Assembly: GCA_963727505.1 (NCBI GenBank)
Contig: CAVSGP010000009.1
Coordinates: forward strand, 672,001-736,000
Source: an uncultured Trueperaceae bacterium
GTDB taxonomy: Bacteria; Deinococcota; Deinococci; Deinococcales; Trueperaceae
DNA: 64,000 bases
Reading direction: 5' to 3'
Shown here: positions 14,731-20,700 of the stretch, piece by piece
Layout: every line of letters starts with the position of its first letter
Position numbering within the stretch: position 1 is the stretch's first letter
Program-made: the position numbers

Positions 14731-17700
14731 GTTCTTCTTGGCCGTCTCGAAGAGGTCGCGGACGCGGGCGGCCCCGACGCCGACGAACATCTCGACGAAG
14801 TCCGAGCCGCTGATCGAGAAGAACGGCACCTTGGCCTCGCCGGCCACCGCCTTCGCAAGGTGCGTCTTGCCGGAGCCGGGGGGGCCCACCATCAGCACCC
14901 CGTGGGGGATGCGGGCCCCGAGGGCGTGGAACTTCGCGGGGTTCTTGAGGAACTCGACGACCTCGGTCAGGTCGCTCTTGGCTTCTTCGACACCGGCCAC
15001 GTCCTTGAACAGGACGTTGGTGTTCTCTTCCGTGACCAGGCGGGCACGGCTCTTGCCGAACGAGACCGCCCCGTCGCCGCCGCCACGGGCGCCGCGCATG
15101 AGGTAGAAGAGCAGGCCCACCATCAGGAGGATGGGGAGGGCGTAGACCAGCACGTTGCCCCAGTTGGTACCGGGGGGCATCGCCTGGACGTCGACGCCGT
15201 GGCCCGTGAAGCGGCTCAGGTCGGTGGGCGGGGTTGGCAGGTAGGTGACGTAGGGGTTCCCGCTCTTGGGCGTGACCTGGAGTTCGGTGTTGCGGATGCG
15301 GATACTCTGGATCTCACCGTTGTCGAGCTGCTGCTGGAAGGTGGAGTAGCTCTTGGGCTCGTGCTGGGATCGGTGACTCGACTGCGTGGCCACGAACACG
15401 ACCAGCGCGATGACGCCGATGGCGACCAGGAAACCGCGAAGCGGGAAGCGCCCCATAGGTCAGTCTACCTCCCGCGCCATGAGCCCCACGTTGGTGAGAC
15501 GATGGGGGTTCCTTCATGCTCGCTGCGGTTCAGGGGGCGCGAGCCAGATCGTTGAAGCGCACGTGCGCGTTGTGGAATTGCAGCTCAAGCGTTCCGGTCG
15601 GACCGTTGCGTTGCTTGCCGATGATGACCTCGGCGATACCGTGCTTCTCCGACTGCTGGTCGTAGTACTCGTCGCGGTAGATGAACATCACGAGGTCGGC
15701 GTCCTGCTCGATGGCACCACTTTCACGCAGGTCCGACAGCATCGGCCGCTTGTTGGGCCGGCTCTCGACGGCGCGCGATAGCTGCGAGAGCACCAGCACT
15801 GGGATGTCGAGCTCGCGGGCGAGCGCCTTGAGCCCGCGCGAGATGGCCGAGATCTCCTGCTGGCGGTTCTCACCGGTGCTGCGGGTCCCGGCAGACATGA
15901 GCTGCAGGTAGTCGACGACAAGCAGCCCCAGGTCGTGTTCGGCGGTCAGTCGACGAGCGCGGGAACGCAGCTCCATCACCGTCAGGTCGGGGTTGTCGTC
16001 GATGAAGATGCGCGCGTCCGACATACGCCCGGCGGTGTCGGCGAGGCGCTGGAAGTCGCGGTCGGAGAGCTGGCCGTTGCGCACCCGGCTCATGTCGACC
16101 CGCGCCTCCGAGCAGAGCATGCGGGTGACCAGCTGCACGGCCGACATCTCCAGCGAGAAGATGCCGACGCTGACCTCGTCGCGCAGCGCGGCGTTGAGCG
16201 CCATGCTGAGCGCGAGCGCCGTCTTGCCCATCGAAGGGCGCGCAGCGAGCACGTTCAGGCTCGACGGCTGGAGCCCCGCGGTCATGTTGTCGAGCTCTTT
16301 GAAGCCCGTGCGCATGCCCGAGACGGGATCGGGGTTCGCGAACAGCTCGTTGATGTGGGCGAAGGTCTCGGTGACGAGCGTCGTCATGCCCTCGAACTGC
16401 GTGCGGCGCTTCTTGGTGGCCAGGTCGAAGATGTTCTGCTCGGCCTGGTCCAACACCTCGTCGAGCGGCCCGGCCTGATCGTAGGCGAGTTGCATGATGC
16501 GCCCGCTGGCCGAGATGAGTTCGCGCAGCGTCGCCTTTTCCAGCACGATGCGCGCGTAGCTGTCGGCGTACGCCGCGGTCGGAACGCTGTCGGCGAGGCC
16601 GATGAGATAGGGGACGCTGCCCACGCTCTCGAGCTCGCCCGATTGCCGGAGCTCCTCCGTGAGCGTGACCAGGTCCATGGGTTCGCCGCTGCGGAACAGG
16701 CGCTCGATGGCGCGGAAGATCTTGCGGTGCCCCTCCTTGTAGAAGTGGCCGGCCGCTAGCACCCCTTCCAGCGACGCGTAGGTCTCGTTGTCCAGAAGGA
16801 TGCTGCCCAGAACGCTCTGTTCGGCCTCGAGATTATGGGGGGGTGTTCGGCTCTCCACGCCGGCCATTGTACGTTGCGCCGCCGGCAGGCTCGACGGGTG
16901 AGGGGGGAAGAGGCCCGGTCGGCAGGGTGGAGGGCGGGACCGGTGCCGCGCAGACGGCCCGCGGCTAGAATGGTGAGCGCATGGGCGGGATCTTCACAGC
17001 GGTCGCAGGGTTGGCGCTGGCGTGGCTGGTCGGCTCGGTGCCGCTGGGCTCCACGCTGGTCCGGTGGCTCTCCGGTACGGAGCCAGCGGAGGTCAACCCC
17101 CATCTCATCGGAGTGGAGAACGTCTACCGCATGGTCGGGGCGCCTGCGGCTCTGGCGGCCTTCGCGCTCGACGTGCTCAAGGGCGCCGTGGCCGTGGTGC
17201 TGGTGCCTGTGGCGCCGCTCGGTGCGCTGGGCGTCTACCTGGGTCATCTCTACCCGTTGGGCCTACCCGGCCGGGCCAGGCCCCCGCGGGGCCGCGGCAA
17301 CGGGGTGCTGTTGGGTGCGCTGGCCGCGCTCTCGATCACAGGAGGGCTGCCCTGGCTGGCGTTGGCGCTTCCGATCTGGACGTACGCCGGCGTGCTCGCG
17401 GCCCGCCGTTACGTGGCCCTCGCGACCGTGAGCGGGCTGGCGGTGCTGGCGGCGGCGTCCGTGATGGCCTGGGTCGCTGGAGCGGCCGGGTCGCTGGCTG
17501 CCCTCGCGGCGGTACTCGTCGCGGCTTCGGGGGCCTGGCGCCAGAAGGCCGCCCTGGCACGGGTGCGCGACGGAACCGAGGCGCGCCTCGGCGATCCGCC
17601 CGCGGTGCGGGGACTCGAACCGGACACTCTGCTGTGCGCCTTCCTCGTGCACCCCATGACGGTGGACGACCTGTGGCAGCCCCCGAGCCAGCGCTGGCTG

Positions 17701-20700
17701 CGGCACCTGGCGGCCCGCGGCCTGCTGCCAGAAAGGGCGCTGCGCCGCATCATGCTCCGCATGCGCCCCCAGAGCCAGGGGGTGATCGAGGGCGTCCGCT
17801 TGCCCGACGGCCGGCGCATGCGCGTGCTCCTGATCGGCGGCCCCATGCTGCCCGACCAGTTCGCCGCCCACCCCGACATCGCGCTGAGGATGGCCATCCA
17901 GGGCGCCCGGCTGGCGCACGAGCTCGGCGCCGAAGCGGTCGGGCTGGGCGCATTCTGGTCGACCGTCGGCGACAAGGGTCAGGACGTGCAGCGCGCAGTC
18001 CCCGAGATCGCGGTCACCAACGGCGGCGCCTACACGGCGGCGAGCGTGCGGGCGGCGGTCCCCGGCCTGCTCGAGCGCTTCGCGGCCGAAGGGGGCTCGC
18101 TGCGGCGCGCCACGGCAGCCGTCGTCGGCGCCAACGGTGTCGTGGCGTTCGGGGTGGCGCGCATGATCGCGCCCGAGGTGCGCGAGCTGGTGCTGGTCGG
18201 CCGCGACGCCCAACGGCTGCGGCGCAGCGCCCAGACGCTGCGCCGCAAGCATCCGGACACGGAGGTGCTCGCCACCACCGATCTCGCCGCGGTGGCCGGG
18301 GCCGATCTGGTATTCACCGCGACCTCCGATCCCGCACCCGTGTTGCGCCCCGAGCACATCCGGCCCGGAGCATGGGTCTTCGACCTGGGGCGGCCGGCCG
18401 ATGTACACCCCAGCGTGCGGGAGGTTCCCGGCGTGCAGATCGTCCCGGGCGGCGTGGTGCGCCCGCCCGGCGCGATGCGGTCGCAGATCGACATCCGCTT
18501 CGGGGACGGGCTGGTCCCCGCCTGCCTGGCCGAAACGATGATCATGACGGCCGCGCACGCCTTCGACCGCCGCAGCCTGGGGTCGGTCACGCGCACGGCG
18601 GATATCGCCTTCTACCTGCGCGAAGGGGAGCGGCTGGGCTTCGAGATCGTCACGCGCGACGAGCGGGTGGCGGAGTTGGAGGCCGCGCTGTGAGGCGCGC
18701 CCGGTGAAGGCGTTCCGCATGACGGGGCGGCTTGAGCCCGAGAGCCCCGCCGTGGCCCGGCTCTTCGAATGCGGATCGCTGGGCGCGGTGGAGGAGACCG
18801 GCGGGAGCGGTGTCGAGATCGTGGCGTACTTCGACCGCCAGGTCGAGCTGGGCCTCGAGGGGCGCTGGGAGGACGTCGAGACGTTCGATTACGTCGCCGC
18901 CTACCGGGCCGATCTGAAGGCGGTGCGGGTGGGCTCGCTGGTGGTCGCGCCCACCCACCGGCGCGCCGAGCTGGAGGCCGGCCAGCAGGTGGTATGGCTT
19001 GACCCCGGCACCGCCTTCGGGACCGGCCACCACGAGACGACGCGCCTGGCGCTGGGGACGCTGGTCAGTATCGACCTGGTCGGACGGAGCGTGCTCGACG
19101 TGGGCGCCGGGTCCGGCATCCTCACGGTGGCGGCCGACCGGCTCGGCGCGGGCCTGGCCCTCGGCGTCGATATCGATGCCGCCACCGTCGAGGTCGCGCG
19201 CCGCAACGCCGTGCTCAACCGCTCGCGGGCACGGTTCCTGACGGGTAGCGTCGACCATCCGGATCTTCCTGCGCGCTTCGACGTCATCGTCGCAAACCTC
19301 TACGCCGAGCTCCATGCCGCGCTGATGCCCGCCTACCTGGCCCGCCTGAACGCCGGCGGCGCGCTGCTGTTGACCGGCATCCTCACGCGGCTCGAGCCGA
19401 CCGTACGTCGTGCGCTCCCCGAGGGACTGCCGTTCCGGGTGGAGCGGGAGGGTGAGTGGTCGCTGTTCGCGGTGCGCATGGGGAGCCTCGAGGCGGGGCG
19501 ATCGAGGTGGACGCCATGAGGTGGACGCCGTGAGCAGGGCAAGGACGCCACGGGGTTCTGCGTGGCGCCCGCGGCCGTGGGTACCGCTGTTGGCACCGCT
19601 CCTGGCGCTTCTCCTGGGGCTGGGCGCGTGCACGCCGCTCTACGTGCCGCCGGTTCCGGAACGCGTCCCCGTGCACGAGGTCGCACAGCTCGGTGACGCA
19701 AGCGCGTTGCGCCTCCGGGACGGCGTCCTGACCCTGCACGTGGTGCTCGATCGCATCCCCGACGCGGGTTGGCTGGCGGTGCAGTGGTTCGCGCCGGACG
19801 GCACCGAAGTTGCCTCGGACAGCGTCTGGGTCGCCCCGGCGAACGTGGGAGAGGGCCGCACTCTGGTGTTGCCGCCGCGCGTGAGCCCGAGCGCGGGCGA
19901 GTGGCGGGCGGTCGTCTCGCTCCGGGGCGAAGTGCTGCGGCAGTTCCGCGCGACCGTCACGGCGAACGCGTTGTAGGGACCCTCCTGTAGCCCGGAGCAA
20001 CGGGGCCCGGCGGAACGGGGCGTCCACGCCGGGAGGGATGGTAGGAAGCGTGATCGCCGGCAAGCTAGACCGGTCCGTCTACGCTCGGAACGGTAGCCGA
20101 TCGGCCGTTTTGAGCCACCGATCCATCGAACGAGGCGCCCACCCGCGTGCCGGGCGATGTGCGGTCCAGCAACAGGCACCGACCCCGATACGGGGCCGGT
20201 GCCTGGGCGACGGGTCGCCTGGAGAGCGTCCCGGGAGCGTCATGGCGGGGGCCGCGTCGTCGCGGCCGGCGGTCAGGCCGTGCGCCTCCGTGTGCGGCGG
20301 GCGCGCTTCTGCTGCTGCATCTTGAACCACACCACCATGGGCGACAGGATGAAGATGCTCGAGTAGGTGCCGAAGCCGATGCCGATGAGCAACGCGATGC
20401 TGAAGCCCCGGAGCACGCTGCCGCCGAACAGCAGCAGCGCGAGGACGGGCAGCAGCGTGGTGCCCGAGGTCGCCACGGTCCGCGACAGCGTCTGGTTCAC
20501 GGCCAGGTCGACGACCTCGGCGTAGCTGCGGTCGCGCACCTTGCGGAGGTTCTCGCGGATGCGGTCGGCGATGATGATGGAGTCGTTGAGAGAATAGCCG
20601 ACGACGAAGAGCACCGCGGCCAGCACCGGGATGCTGAAGGTCACGTTGAACAGGTCGAGCGCGCCCAGCACGATGCCGGCGTCGTGGATGGTGGCGATGA

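What a model noticed while it worked through the whole genome (the two positions that open the first line are those of the whole stretch)
16981..18693. Phylum-wide PlsY-like / acyl-ACP-reductase-like fusion as candidate for the Deinococcota alkylamine lipid
Gene g02588 encodes a 570-aa fusion of a PlsY-type (acyl-phosphate:glycerol-3-phosphate acyltransferase) membrane domain with a C-terminal NAD(P)-binding domain of the cyanobacterial acyl-ACP reductase (AAR)/PigE-N family that keeps the catalytic cysteine; it is one of four PlsY paralogues here and is present full length in nearly every Deinococcota genome. Boldest reading: it is the missing enzyme that makes the third hydrophobic chain of the phylum's signature phosphoglycolipid (N-glyceroyl alkylamine lipid): the AAR-like domain reduces acyl-ACP to a fatty aldehyde (precursor of the alkylamine) and the PlsY-like domain couples it in the membrane. 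If true this identifies the first gene of a [...]
Evidence so far: pfam.tsv: G3P_acyltransf 13-194, Shikimate_DH/OCD_Mu_crystall 343-487. C-terminal 360 aa hit PDB 4PPM (named aminotransferase, 861 aa; recalled to be PigE of prodigiosin synthesis, whose N-terminal reductase-like domain, residues 70-323, is the part matched; E 2e-10) and AAR 6JZU/6JZQ (E 6e-5), with the AAR catalytic Cys (position recalled) aligned (query ..VPACLAETMI.. vs AAR ..FACFAEAML.., 4PPM ..NGCMAETIV..). Matches at E<=1e-30 in 349 of 364 Deinococcota genomes of all six families, the listed ones mostly spanning the whole query. 651 homologues E<1e-10, the named ones among the 120 listed all Deinococcales/Trueperaceae, annotated only 'glycerol-3-phosphate acyltransferase' or 'predicted [...]
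(Added by a program. Inside this text positions count along the whole contig: contig position 672,001 is position 1 of the stretch shown here. "Call 12" and the like, gene names such as g00115 and contig names such as C1 are that model's own, and its searches are not shown. The text may have been shortened before it was handed on; [...] marks where a part breaks off. The agent that wrote the report below was given it as the finding of a first reader that could run no searches.)

Follow-up and report, generated by a model that had tools for sequence, protein, structure and literature searches.

The report
PlsY-like membrane anchor fused to acyl reductase
This gene joins a membrane domain derived from a lipid acyltransferase to a fatty-acyl reductase; it probably makes fatty aldehyde at the membrane, perhaps for an unusual amine-containing lipid, but that is untested and the gene is not confined to one phylum.

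Summary
Window 16981..18693 (+) encodes a 570-aa protein: a PlsY-fold membrane domain (aa 1-205) joined to a complete AAR/PigE-N-type NAD(P)-binding module (aa 206-570) with an invariant cysteine, C515.

It occurs in 354 of 364 Deinococcota genomes. The four PlsY paralogues and the PDB and Pfam hits were all reproduced.

Two premises of the interpretation fail:
- The same fusion (45-55% identity) also occurs in MAGs labelled Armatimonadota, Bacillota and Actinomycetota. A sister clade with a canonical PlsY domain occurs in Patescibacteria.
- N-glyceroyl alkylamine lipids are also reported from Bacillota (Moorella thermoacetica).

New findings:
- In this protein the PlsY domain keeps the acyl-phosphate "phosphate hole" but has lost most G3P-pocket residues and gained a fixed Glu (T41E).
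- In three other genomes the fusion is the only PlsY.
- PlsX is present in 4 of 5 non-Deinococcota fusion genomes and in one Berkelbacteria genome.
- The nearest stand-alone reductases lie in Moorella-type Bacillota (23 of 23 genomes of that family), in an operon with an uncharacterised 300-aa protein that Deinococcota also carry.

Best reading: a membrane fatty acyl-phosphate or acyl-ACP reductase that makes fatty aldehyde. The link to the alkylamine lipid is plausible and somewhat strengthened, but still correlative.

The parts
16981..18693 (+). Whole gene (570 aa plus stop): PlsY-like membrane domain fused to an AAR/PigE-N-type reductase module.
   Evidence: ORF and translation. Full-length homologues in 354 of 364 Deinococcota genomes. 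AF2 model pLDDT 89.5, pTM 0.89.
16981..17595 (+). PlsY-fold membrane domain, aa 1-205.
   Evidence: PF02660 aa 13-194, 6e-22. 5xj5 by sequence 3.9e-8 and by fold E 2e-6, TM-target 0.73. Below the TIGR00023 cut-off, 49.3 vs 137.2 bits.
17116..17118 (+). Glu46, at the position of aaPlsY Thr41, whose hydroxyl binds the acyl-phosphate carbonyl.
   Evidence: Alignment to 5xj5. Thr41 role from PMC5700162. E in 120 of 120 Trueperaceae-like homologues and 8 of 8 Deinococcota representatives. T or G in most Armatimonadota/Bacillota-like homologues. T in 7 of 9 Patescibacteria fusions.
17245..17247 (+). His89, equivalent to aaPlsY His92 (side chain of the acyl-phosphate 'phosphate hole').
   Evidence: Invariant in 245 of 245 homologues and in alignment A1. 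Role from PMC5700162.
17287..17298 (+). Loop-3 equivalent R103-G104-R105-G106 (aaPlsY G102-G103-K104-G105).
   Evidence: alignment. G102->R in 119 of 120 and 115 of 116 homologues. K104->R in 120 of 120 Trueperaceae-like homologues, K kept in 106 of 116 of the others.
17536..17562 (+). Motif-3 equivalent W186..R194 ('WRQKAALAR'). His177->Gln188 and Asn180->Ala191, so two G3P-pocket residues are lost.
   Evidence: alignment. Census. Roles of His177 and Asn180 from PMC5700162.
17596..18690 (+). Complete AAR/PigE-N-type module, aa 206-570: N-terminal lobe, Rossmann lobe and Cys-bearing helix.
   Evidence: NCBIfam PigE-N 1.4e-24 and AAR 2.9e-8. 4ppm and 6jzu by sequence. Foldseek AAR 6jzu E 8e-18, TM-target 0.74; carmabin TAD 9e56 E 3.4e-14.
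18127..18138 (+). Dinucleotide-binding glycines G383-A-N-G386.
   Evidence: Invariant in A1 and in 245 of 245 homologues.
18214..18216 (+). Arg412, just after Rossmann strand beta-2. It aligns with the Arg of AAR 'TARN', which suggests NADPH rather than NADH (inference).
   Evidence: Invariant R412 in A1. Alignment to 6jzu.
18523..18525 (+). Cys515, equivalent to AAR Cys294 and PigE Cys296 (acyl-enzyme nucleophile).
   Evidence: Alignments. Invariant in 245 of 245 homologues. Role from PMC8341465 and the TAD preprint.
18704..19519 (+). prmA, 10 bp downstream on the same strand. Context only: possibly co-transcribed, conserved only within Trueperaceae.
   Evidence: PF06325, 6.8e-46. Neighbour in 20 Trueperaceae-type loci and 1 other.

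Best explanation
The gene encodes a two-domain inner-membrane enzyme.

**C-terminal module.** This cytoplasmic module is a complete AAR/PigE-N-type thioester reductase. A fatty acyl group is loaded on Cys515 and reduced by NAD(P)H (probably NADPH) to a fatty aldehyde.

**N-terminal domain.** This domain descends from a working PlsY. It still has the acyl-phosphate 'phosphate hole' (His89, loop R103-G-R-G106). It has lost most of the glycerol-3-phosphate pocket (Ser35->Pro, His177->Gln, Asn180->Ala, Lys104->Arg) and carries a fixed Glu at the Thr41 position.

**Most likely mechanism.** The membrane domain no longer makes lysophosphatidate. It binds fatty acyl-phosphate made by PlsX and presents it to Cys515. 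The protein would then act as a membrane fatty acyl-phosphate reductase, with chemistry like aspartate-semialdehyde dehydrogenase, ArgC or ProA. Acyl-ACP is the alternative acyl donor.

**Fate of the product.** The aldehyde is probably passed on to make the alkylamine of the N-glyceroyl alkylamine phosphoglycolipids.

**Shown versus inferred.**
- Shown: folds, conserved residues, distribution and evolutionary history.
- Inferred: substrate, direction and the fate of the aldehyde.
For: **Fold and active-site residues.**
- AAR fold match: Foldseek 6jzu E 8e-18.
- The catalytic-type Cys and the GxxG motif are invariant in 245 of 245 homologues.

**Characterised relatives are reductive.** AAR, PigE-N and TamH-TR all form aldehydes through a Cys thioester.

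**PlsY residue census.**
- His92 is kept in 245 of 245 homologues and the loop-3 glycine pattern is kept.
- In 120 Trueperaceae-like homologues: Ser35 is P (84) or A (35), Thr41 is E (120), His177 is Q (63), H (50) or L (7), and Asn180 is A (79) or S (36).
- Residue roles come from PMC5700162.

**Single origin of the fusion.** The reductase domains of 16 Deinococcota-type fusions and 8 of 9 Patescibacteria fusions form one clade (SH-aLRT 99). The Patescibacteria members, and about half of the Armatimonadota/Bacillota-like ones, keep canonical PlsY residues.

**Relation to PlsY and PlsX.**
- In G364, G365 and G368 the fusion ORF holds the genome's only PF02660 match.
- PlsX is present in the window's own genome, in 4 of 5 non-Deinococcota fusion genomes and in a 1-Mb Berkelbacteria genome. 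Acyl-phosphate is therefore available, and the reductase is not a PlsX substitute.
- The window's genome has a separate canonical PlsY (L001) plus two variants. That would free this copy to specialise.

**Link to alkylamine lipids.**
- The lipid's enzymes are unidentified (PMC9636437), and the lipid is the major phospholipid of Thermus, Meiothermus and Deinococcus (PMC3035268).
- M. thermoacetica holds N-glyceroyl alkylamines, and 23 of 23 genomes of the family of N. sulfitireducens carry the reductase.
- The AAR model rings in T. thermophilus and D. radiodurans but in neither E. coli nor B. subtilis. In total it rings in 4 of 14 control genomes.
Against: - No biochemical data exist for any member of this fusion family.
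- The Moorella-type enzyme is stand-alone and sits in a different part of the tree from the fusions.
- The family is broad: Negativicutes, Desulfotomaculia, Chloroflexota, Actinomycetota and Patescibacteria. I know of no report of alkylamine lipids in those groups; this is from recall and was not searched.
- No aminotransferase, glycerate-related or lipid gene is a conserved neighbour in any lineage.
- A membrane Glu at the Thr41 position is not obviously needed just to hand over acyl-phosphate.
- Two near-complete genomes of the window's own family lack any reductase match: G307 (100% complete) and G342 (97% complete, one contig, only a weak 4e-6 hit). Their lipids are unknown.
- The direction of the reaction cannot be read from sequence.
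Confidence: 0.4

Rival explanations
1. Supply direction. The AAR-like domain makes acyl-phosphate for PlsY-type acyltransferases. It would either oxidise fatty aldehyde with NAD(P)+ and phosphorolyse the Cys thioester (GAPDH-like), or phosphorolyse an acyl group taken from acyl-ACP. The fusion would channel the labile acyl-phosphate into the membrane site. This would be housekeeping phospholipid synthesis, not alkylamine synthesis.
For: - Fused enzymes usually catalyse consecutive steps.
- In G364, G365 and G368 the fusion is the only PlsY, and the Patescibacteria forms keep all PlsY residues.
- Precedent: PMC5700162 reports DegV/FakB-like proteins fused to the C-terminus of PlsY. These are acyl-phosphate suppliers.
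Against: - PlsX is present alongside the fusion in G364, G366, G367, G368, G483 and the window's genome. No replacement is needed.
- All characterised relatives run in the reductive direction.
- In Deinococcota the fused PlsY domain has lost G3P-pocket residues, so it could not use the product itself.
Confidence: 0.15
2. The protein is a fatty-acyl reductase as in the best explanation, but the aldehyde (or an alcohol) goes to another product. Candidates are the long-chain 1,2-diols of Thermus/Meiothermus glycolipids, fatty alcohols or wax, ether lipids or hydrocarbons.
For: - The family occurs widely in taxa with no reported alkylamine lipid.
- Long-chain diols are reported in Meiothermus (PMC3035268).
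- Related reductase domains are fused to PlsC-type acyltransferase and START lipid-binding domains.
- Recalled, not checked here: the myxobacterial ether-lipid enzyme ElbD joins a reductase to an acyltransferase domain.
Against: - Diols are minor and strain-specific, whereas the gene is near-universal in the phylum.
- No deformylating oxygenase or wax synthase context was seen in the neighbourhood analyses.
- The alkylamine lipid is the one phylum-wide product that needs a reduced fatty chain.
Confidence: 0.2
3. The protein is an ordinary PlsY paralogue. Its C-terminal Rossmann module is regulatory, for example sensing NAD(P)H or acyl-ACP, and does not catalyse a reaction.
For: - Databases annotate it only as glycerol-3-phosphate acyltransferase.
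- In some genomes it is the sole PlsY.
Against: - The invariant Cys515 and dinucleotide motif in 245 of 245 homologues point to catalysis.
- This window's copy lacks Ser35, Thr41, His177 and Asn180. Mutating each of these cut aaPlsY activity by 80% or more in the cited study.
Confidence: 0.1
4. TAD-like chemistry. The acyl-S-Cys intermediate is attacked by a nitrogen nucleophile to give an amide rather than being reduced.
For: The carmabin TAD, an AAR-like domain with Cys2238 and NAD, is a strong fold match: 9e56 E 3.4e-14. Its authors propose it forms terminal amides (preprint 10.1101/2024.10.28.620694).
Against: - TAD activity itself was not reconstituted in that preprint.
- In the target lipid the fatty chain is on the amine side of the amide, not the acyl side.
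- AAR is the better match by sequence and by fold.
Confidence: 0.05

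Closest known systems
Cyanobacterial acyl-ACP reductase (AAR; PDB 6JZU/6JZQ; TIGR04058)
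   Same: - Same two-lobe fold over the whole C-terminal 360 aa (Foldseek E 8e-18, TM-target 0.74-0.76).
- The Cys294 equivalent (C515) and the dinucleotide motif are conserved.
- Expected Cys-thioester plus NADPH mechanism.
   Different: - About 20% identity.
- Scores 33.4 bits against a 449.7-bit family cut-off.
- Fused to a 7-TM PlsY-like domain rather than being soluble and stand-alone.
- No aldehyde-deformylating oxygenase partner is known.
- The acyl donor may be acyl-phosphate rather than acyl-ACP (inference).
PigE N-terminal and TamH C-terminal thioester-reductase domains (prodigiosin and tambjamine pathways)
   Same: - Best curated sequence match: NF053554 positions 69-315, 1.4e-24.
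- The equivalent of Cys296 (PigE) and Cys887 (TamH) is conserved.
- These domains make aldehydes that are transaminated to amines. TamH acts on C12 fatty chains.
   Different: - Those domains are fused to class-III aminotransferases. This protein has no aminotransferase domain and no aminotransferase neighbour.
- Score 86.5 bits against an 850-bit cut-off.
- This is primary-metabolism-like, phylum-wide distribution rather than a secondary-metabolite cluster.
PlsY, acyl-phosphate:glycerol-3-phosphate acyltransferase (Aquifex aeolicus, PDB 5XJ5)
   Same: - 7-TM fold (TM-target 0.73).
- PF02660 above its cut-off.
- His92 and the loop-3 phosphate hole are kept.
   Different: - Ser35->Pro, Asn37->Leu, Thr41->Glu, Lys104->Arg, His177->Gln and Asn180->Ala in this protein.
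- Below the TIGR00023 cut-off.
- A canonical PlsY exists elsewhere in the genome.
Acyl-phosphate reductases ASADH, ArgC and ProA (works-like comparison only; established biochemistry, recalled)
   Same: The proposed chemistry: acyl-phosphate + Cys-SH gives a thioester, then NADPH reduces it to aldehyde + Pi.
   Different: - Not homologous in any tested sense. Only weak Semialdhyde_dh NAD-domain hits were seen in some relatives.
- The substrate here would be a membrane-bound long-chain acyl-phosphate.
PlsY-DegV (FakB-like) natural fusions noted by Li et al. 2017 (PMC5700162)
   Same: A soluble lipid-handling domain is fused to the cytoplasmic C-terminus of PlsY.
   Different: DegV binds fatty acid for kinase-dependent acyl-phosphate supply. 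Here the partner is a redox enzyme. That paper's Pfam survey did not report the reductase fusion.
Carmabin terminal amidation domain (TAD; PDB 9E4S-9E56)
   Same: AAR-like fold with an invariant Cys next to the NAD nicotinamide.
   Different: - TAD sits at the end of NRPS modules, is NAD-specific through an Asp, and has a macrodomain-like N-lobe.
- About 16% identity.

Membership tests
PlsY (PF02660 / TIGR00023) | 7-TM PlsY fold and a Pfam match above the gathering score | tested here: met
   PF02660 scores 78.9 bits against a 24.1-bit cut-off. Foldseek 5xj5 E 2e-6, TM-target 0.73.
PlsY (PF02660 / TIGR00023) | Equivalog score (TIGR00023 cut-off 137.2 bits) | tested here: not met
   49.3 bits.
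PlsY (PF02660 / TIGR00023) | G3P pocket: phosphate clamp Ser35, Arg45, Lys104, Asn180, plus 2-OH ligands Ser142 and His177 (PMC5700162) | tested here: not met
   P40, R50, R105, A191, T149 and Q188 in this protein. Only Arg45 is kept. Ser142->Thr and Lys104->Arg are conservative changes.
PlsY (PF02660 / TIGR00023) | Acyl-phosphate site: His92, the loop-3 backbone phosphate hole and the Thr41 hydroxyl | tested here: inconclusive
   His92 is kept in 245 of 245 homologues and the loop-3 glycines are kept, but Thr41->Glu in 120 of 120 Trueperaceae-like homologues.
PlsY (PF02660 / TIGR00023) | Acyl-phosphate:G3P acyltransferase activity | not testable with these tools
   Needs an enzyme assay.
Acyl-ACP reductase, AAR (TIGR04058) | Two-lobe AAR fold | tested here: met
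   6jzu/6jzz/6jzy E 8e-18 to 1.5e-16, TM-target 0.74-0.76 over about 365 columns.
Acyl-ACP reductase, AAR (TIGR04058) | Catalytic Cys (Cys294) and the GxxGxxG dinucleotide motif | tested here: met
   C515 aligned. C515, G383 and G386 are invariant in 245 of 245 homologues.
Acyl-ACP reductase, AAR (TIGR04058) | Equivalog score (cut-off 449.7 bits) | tested here: not met
   33.4 bits. The genome search gives 34.9 bits.
Acyl-ACP reductase, AAR (TIGR04058) | Partnership with aldehyde-deformylating oxygenase and alkane production | not tested
   No search for ADO was run. None was seen among the neighbours.
PigE / TamH bifunctional reductase-transaminase (NF053554) | Class-III aminotransferase domain fused to the reductase | tested here: not met
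   No PF00202 in the protein. The ten PF00202 genes in the genome all lie elsewhere.
PigE / TamH bifunctional reductase-transaminase (NF053554) | Reductase-domain homology with the conserved Cys | tested here: met
   1.4e-24 over model positions 69-315. Cys aligned with 4ppm.
Glutamyl-tRNA reductase (hemA) | Full-length GluTR architecture (catalytic N-domain plus dimerisation helix) | tested here: not met
   Only the Rossmann part matches, aa 355-488. Foldseek TM-target is 0.27-0.29.

The most novel reading that the evidence does not exclude
In Deinococcota the fusion carries out two steps of alkylamine-lipid synthesis.

1. **Reductase step.** The reductase module turns PlsX-made fatty acyl-phosphate into fatty aldehyde. 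This would be a long-chain acyl-phosphate reductase, an activity not described for this family.
2. **Re-tooled PlsY step.** After transamination of the aldehyde, the remodelled PlsY-like domain runs PlsY chemistry with the roles swapped. The soluble three-carbon substrate would be the acyl-phosphate 1,3-bisphosphoglycerate. Its 3-phosphate would sit in the retained Arg45/Lys(Arg)104 clamp and its leaving phosphate in the retained His92/loop-3 hole. The lipid in the groove would be the alkylamine, with its ammonium handled by the Deinococcota-specific Glu at the Thr41 position. The product would be N-(3-phospho)glyceroyl alkylamine.

The conserved 300-aa protein that travels with the reductase in Bacillota and Deinococcota would supply a further step.
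Probability: 0.07. Interest if true: 0.9.

Novelty: new variant of a known kind. Interest (0 to 1): 0.66.

Why it matters
The alkylamine phosphoglycolipid is the dominant phospholipid of Thermus, Meiothermus and Deinococcus (PMC3035268). As of 2022 the enzymes that make its third hydrophobic chain were stated to be unidentified (PMC9636437).

This gene is a concrete candidate that can be tested by knockout in two genetically tractable model organisms.

The protein matters independently of that lipid, for three reasons:
- It is annotated only as 'glycerol-3-phosphate acyltransferase'. Yet in the Deinococcota examined it lacks several G3P-pocket residues; this Trueperaceae copy lacks most of them.
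- In some Armatimonadota and Actinomycetota MAGs it is the only PlsY, so a redox module is wired to the committed step of phospholipid synthesis.
- If the substrate is acyl-phosphate, this would be a new entry point to fatty aldehydes, amines and alcohols.

The work also exposes an uncharacterised, very highly conserved 300-aa protein that co-occurs with the reductase across phyla.

Tried and rejected
1. **Single-sequence AlphaFold2 model**. pLDDT was 47.6, so it was discarded. It was redone with alignment A1.

2. **Gene neighbourhoods.** No partner is conserved across lineages.
   - Six Deinococcota loci.
   - 119 loci of Trueperaceae, other Deinococcota, Armatimonadota, Bacillota and Actinomycetota.
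   - One Berkelbacteria locus.
   - Only lineage-specific housekeeping synteny appeared: dnaB/ftsH/prmA; infC-rplT and a PNP_UDP_1 gene; SHMT; DEAD helicase; narJI; ychF/rpsF/ssb/efp.

3. **Class-III aminotransferases** in the window's own genome. There are ten. That is too many to single one out, and none is near the gene.

4. **Complex prediction**, reductase module plus the 300-aa protein. No verdict: score 0.00 against a mark of 0.32. This is not evidence either way.

5. **The 300-aa protein.** No Pfam or NCBIfam family. No PDB sequence relative at E<=10 beyond noise. No profile homology to the reductase (hhalign probability 0.4).

6. **'PlsX replacement' idea** for the reductase. Rejected, because PlsX co-occurs with the fusion.

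7. **Strict coupling of the 300-aa protein and the reductase.** Rejected.
   - 8 of 91 genomes in the Moorella-type phylum have the 300-aa protein only.
   - Genomes G307 and G342 have it without any reductase.
   - Two Berkelbacteria genomes have the fusion (one on a partial 95-aa match at a contig end) without it.

8. **Bale et al. 2025** (Syst Appl Microbiol 48:126609) is not held. Only its title was seen, in reference lists. The list of Bacillota species with the lipid therefore could not be compared with gene presence.

9. **Literature searches.** No paper on this fusion, or on genes for the alkylamine chain, was found. Searches:
   - Deinococcus / alkylamine / phosphoglycolipid
   - glyceroyl alkylamine variants
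   - COG5322 / acyl-ACP reductase / PlsY / Deinococcus / Thermus
   - N-glyceroyl alkylamine / Bacillota / Moorella
   - alkylamine / Thermus thermophilus / biosynthesis / phosphoglycolipid / gene

10. **The search of earlier findings** by place, sequence and words returned nothing.

Full report
**What is there**

Window 16981..18693 (+) is one ATG-started ORF of 570 aa. It lies between dnaB (15530..16867, minus strand) and prmA (18704..19519, plus strand, 10 bp downstream). ftsH and secDF lie further out.

- Residues 13-194 match Pfam G3P_acyltransf (6e-22). Residues 343-487 match Shikimate_DH and OCD_Mu_crystall Rossmann models.
- NCBIfam places residues 288-536 on the N-terminal, non-aminotransferase part of PigE (model positions 69-315, 1.4e-24) and residues 346-523 on cyanobacterial acyl-ACP reductase (2.9e-8). 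The PlsY equivalog model scores only 49.3 bits against a cut-off of 137.2.
- Against PDB sequences the hits are 4ppm_A (3.4e-10), PlsY 5xj5 (3.9e-8) and AAR 6jzu/6jzq (1.2e-4). The Cys of 'VPACLAETMI' aligns with the Cys of 'NGCMAETIV' and 'FACFAEAML'.
- PMC8341465 (passages read) identifies these as PigE Cys296 and AAR Cys294, the residue that carries the acyl-enzyme thioester.
- An AlphaFold2 model on a 26-row alignment is confident (pLDDT 89.5, pTM 0.89).
- Foldseek finds AAR over the whole C-terminal 365 columns (6jzu E 8e-18, TM-target 0.74), the AAR-like carmabin 'TAD' (9e56, 3.4e-14) and PlsY (5xj5, 2e-6, TM-target 0.73).

- four PF02660 matches in the genome;
- 354 of 364 Deinococcota genomes with a match at E<=1e-5, which is 349 at <=1e-30;
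- 260 of 263 high-quality genomes, across all six families (the tally includes one genome flagged unpublished, G325);
- 651 homologues, annotated 'glycerol-3-phosphate acyltransferase' or 'predicted amino acid dehydrogenase'.

**The fusion is not confined to Deinococcota**

I searched the C-terminal 356 aa against 1.84 billion cluster representatives. This gave 2000 hits at E<=1e-3 and 1111 at <=1e-10.

Pfam scans of 51 of the 150 listed hits showed the reductase module in many architectures:
- stand-alone proteins of about 350 aa;
- fused to PlsY;
- fused to PlsC-type acyltransferase;
- fused to START lipid-binding domains;
- fused to PilZ;
- fused to class-III aminotransferase (the PigE/TamH type);
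- fused to an unknown 310-aa N-terminal region.

Nine PlsY fusions had strong PlsY scores. The two of these nine that carry a name are named Candidatus Berkelbacteria and Patescibacteria group.

Closer, full-length relatives at 45-55% identity lie in a MAG labelled Bacillota. In a scan of 185,579 species genomes they also lie in MAGs labelled as follows (273 relatives, best 80 listed):
- Armatimonadota, at least ten, including Candidatus Nitrosymbiomonas; the Candidatus Fervidifonticultor and Thermofontivivens MAGs probably belong here too, because their proteins carry Armatimonadota names;
- Bacillota, including a Thermaerobacter marianensis MAG;
- Actinomycetota.

One search gave the same picture by protein name. 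All of these are MAG labels and I did not verify the binning.

**History of the fusion**

I built a maximum-likelihood tree of 77 reductase domains (IQ-TREE quick mode, LG+G4, rooted on the three aminotransferase-fused rows).
- The 16 Deinococcota-type fusions and 8 of the 9 Patescibacteria fusions fall in one clade (SH-aLRT 99).
- That clade is apart from the stand-alone Bacillota enzymes.
- One Patescibacteria row (P0219) falls elsewhere.

So the PlsY-reductase fusion most likely arose once.

**State of the PlsY domain**

Residue roles are taken from the Aquifex PlsY structure paper (PMC5700162, passages read):
- G3P phosphate clamp: Ser35, Arg45, Lys104, Asn180;
- 2-OH ligands: Ser142, His177;
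- acyl-phosphate binding: Thr41 hydroxyl, His92 and the loop-3 backbone;
- oxyanion: Asn37.

This protein has Pro40, Arg50, Arg105, Ala191, Thr149, Gln188, Glu46, His89 and Leu42 at those positions.

I took a census on one MAFFT alignment of 245 fusions from three sets. Eight further cluster representatives were aligned with them but not tallied.

| Set | n | Residues at key positions |
|---|---|---|
| Patescibacteria | 9 | Essentially canonical: S35 8, T41 7, K104 9, H177 9, N180 8 |
| Armatimonadota/Bacillota-like | 116 | About half keep canonical residues: S35 50, T41 50, K104 106, H177 100, N180 55 |
| Trueperaceae-like | 120 | Uniformly derived: S35->P 84 / A 35; T41->E 120; K104->R 120; H177->Q 63 / H 50 / L 7; N180->A 79 / S 36 |

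- His92 is kept in 245 of 245. Gly102 is Arg in 119 of 120 and 115 of 116.
- Representatives of Deinococcus, Thermus, Meiothermus, Marinithermus-type and a further family also carry Glu at the Thr41 position (8 of 8). They have Phe or Tyr at His177 but keep Asn180.

The window's genome has a separate canonical PlsY ('GSGNIGATN', 'GGKGIAT', 'HRENIRRL') and two further variants.

By contrast, in Armatimonadota genomes G364 and G365 and Actinomycetes MAG G368, the only PF02660 match in the genome lies inside the fusion ORF.

The ancestral fusion was therefore a working PlsY with a reductase attached. In Deinococcota, where other PlsY copies exist, the fused copy lost much of the G3P pocket, kept the acyl-phosphate hole and fixed a new Glu.

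**What this implies for mechanism**

PlsX, the enzyme that makes acyl-phosphate, co-exists with the fusion in:
- the window's genome;
- 4 of 5 non-Deinococcota fusion genomes (not found in G365);
- a 1-Mb Berkelbacteria genome.

So the reductase is not a PlsX substitute, and acyl-phosphate is at hand.

Every characterised relative transfers an acyl group to the conserved Cys and reduces it to an aldehyde. These relatives are AAR, PigE-N and TamH-TR.

The simplest account of a reductase permanently tied to an acyl-phosphate-binding membrane domain is that both domains draw on the same acyl-phosphate. One makes lysophosphatidate. The other makes fatty aldehyde, by the chemistry of aspartate-semialdehyde dehydrogenase, ArgC and ProA (established biochemistry, recalled). 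In the Deinococcota form only the second reaction would remain.

Arg412 after strand beta-2 aligns with the Arg of AAR, which suggests NADPH (inference).

PlsY has an odd number (seven) of transmembrane helices, its long functional loops are cytoplasmic, and its active site opens to the cytoplasmic side. With the N-terminus outside (recalled from the earlier topology study, not read here), the fused C-terminal module would sit in the cytoplasm.

Substrate, direction and product are inferred, not shown.

**The alkylamine question**

The lipid's importance and the gap are real.
- The N-glyceroyl alkylamine phosphoglycolipid is the major phospholipid of Thermus and Meiothermus. A related one occurs in D. 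radiodurans (PMC3035268).
- In 2022 the enzymes forming the third hydrophobic chain were stated to be unidentified (PMC9636437).

However, the lipid is no longer a Deinococcota-only marker.
- PMC13274423 Table 1 lists N-glyceroyl alkylamines in Moorella thermoacetica.
- It also cites Bale et al. [quoted passage not shown] That paper is not held; only its title was seen.

This allowed a test. The best 80 lie overwhelmingly in thermophilic or anaerobic Bacillota:
- Thermovenabulum, Tepidanaerobacter, Carboxydothermus, Thermacetogenium;
- Neomoorella sulfitireducens and N. stamsii, and a Moorellales MAG;
- Desulfotomaculia and Negativicutes.

All 23 of 23 genomes of the GTDB family that holds the two Neomoorella records carry the gene. 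That M. thermoacetica is one of them is an inference.

The AAR model at E<=1e-3 rings in 4 of 14 named control genomes: Synechococcus elongatus, Thermus thermophilus, Deinococcus radiodurans and Methanocaldococcus jannaschii. It does not ring in E. coli, B. subtilis, Caulobacter, Bacteroides, Thermotoga, Corynebacterium or Lactococcus.

This is support, but limited:
- the Moorella-type enzyme is not the PlsY-fused clade;
- the family is much wider than the known range of the lipid;
- no aminotransferase or glycerate gene is linked in any lineage.

**A travelling companion**

In the Bacillota loci the reductase sits in a conserved string: birA-bioY-coaX-dus-(327-aa unknown)-(176-aa XRE-type HTH protein)-(300-aa unknown)-reductase-greA-lysS.
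- The 300-aa gene lies immediately upstream in 60 of 80 loci. The HTH gene is present in 51 of 80.
- The 300-aa protein has no Pfam, NCBIfam or PDB-sequence relative. Its atlas clusters are auto-named 'putative quinate 5-dehydrogenase'.

It has a very strong homologue elsewhere:
- in the window's own genome (G000 contig 4, 332371-333264, minus strand, E 8e-115);
- in 99 of 101 sampled high-quality Deinococcota genomes;
- in 5 of 5 non-Deinococcota genomes that carry the fusion.

In Deinococcota it heads a string of 300-aa protein, efp, accB, accC ... folD.

Across 91 genomes of the phylum that holds N. sulfitireducens, the counts are (related genomes, so not independent):

| 300-aa protein | Reductase | Genomes |
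|---|---|---|
| present | present | 62 |
| present | absent | 8 |
| absent | present (one weak hit) | 1 |
| absent | absent | 20 |

The coupling is not absolute.
- Genomes G307 and G342 of the window's family have the 300-aa protein but no reductase.
- Two Berkelbacteria genomes lack the 300-aa protein.

Its role is unknown.

**Verdict**

- It fails the defining-residue and score tests for membership of PlsY proper and of AAR proper (see the membership table). It clearly belongs to both superfamilies.
The phylum-exclusive correlation on which it rested is wrong, but the wider comparison gives a new, independent hint in its favour.
- I put 0.4 on 'membrane fatty-acyl (most likely acyl-phosphate) reductase making aldehyde'. 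About three quarters of that (roughly 0.3 overall) goes to the aldehyde feeding the alkylamine lipid.
- Knockout plus lipidomics in Thermus or Deinococcus would settle it.

Noticed in passing
Own genome G000 contig 4, 332371-333264 (minus strand), outside the window; locus L251:9566-10465(-): An uncharacterised 300-aa protein with no Pfam, NCBIfam or PDB-sequence hit; atlas clusters are auto-named 'putative quinate 5-dehydrogenase'. About 47-52% identical between Deinococcota and Bacillota. Found in 99 of 101 sampled Deinococcota genomes. Lies immediately upstream of the stand-alone reductase in 60 of 80 Bacillota loci. In Deinococcota it heads the string with efp-accB-accC.
   Followed up: partly
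Loci L170-L249, e.g. L170:4527-7065: A conserved Bacillota gene string: dus-(327-aa unknown, 9 loci)-(176-aa XRE-HTH protein, 51 of 80 loci)-(300-aa unknown)-(AAR-like reductase)-greA-lysS. Many contigs end shortly after lysS.
   Followed up: partly
Own genome loci L002 (G000:C4:837332-837853) and L003 (G000:C4:463371-463931): Two further short PlsY paralogues with altered motifs ('GDGNPGAMN' / 'WKHRSQLAR' and 'GSGNMGAMN' / 'YRHYLAFRR'). They sit beside the canonical PlsY in L001. Their roles are unknown.
   Followed up: no
Proteins P0170, P0193; P0148, P0152, P0155, P0185, P0258; P0182, P0195, P0200, P0202, P0203; P0146, P0156, P0159, P0167, P0175, P0176: The same reductase module is fused to PlsC-type acyltransferase, START/polyketide-cyclase lipid-binding domains, PilZ (with or without START and HTH) and an unannotated 310-aa N-terminal region. 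This is a wide, lipid-flavoured domain repertoire that appears unstudied.
   Followed up: no
Genomes G380, G381, G383, G385, G386, G388, G405, G423, G427, G432, G463: In these Bacillota genomes the reductase profile matches in two halves inside one open frame of about 870-1080 aa. This suggests another multidomain form with an insert between the two lobes.
   Followed up: no
Loci L218 and L244: Records titled 'Escherichia coli isolate ... cleanbin' and 'Duodenibacillus sp.' carry a Phascolarctobacterium-like copy of the reductase operon. These are probably mis-binned or mislabelled assemblies.
   Followed up: no
Genomes G364, G365, G368: In two Armatimonadota MAGs and one Actinomycetes MAG the fusion ORF holds the only PlsY-family match in the genome. 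PlsX was not found in G365.
   Followed up: partly
window 19410..19976 (+): A 188-aa ORF downstream of prmA, overlapping its end, with no Pfam family at E<=1e-5. It may be spurious in this 70% G+C DNA.
   Followed up: no
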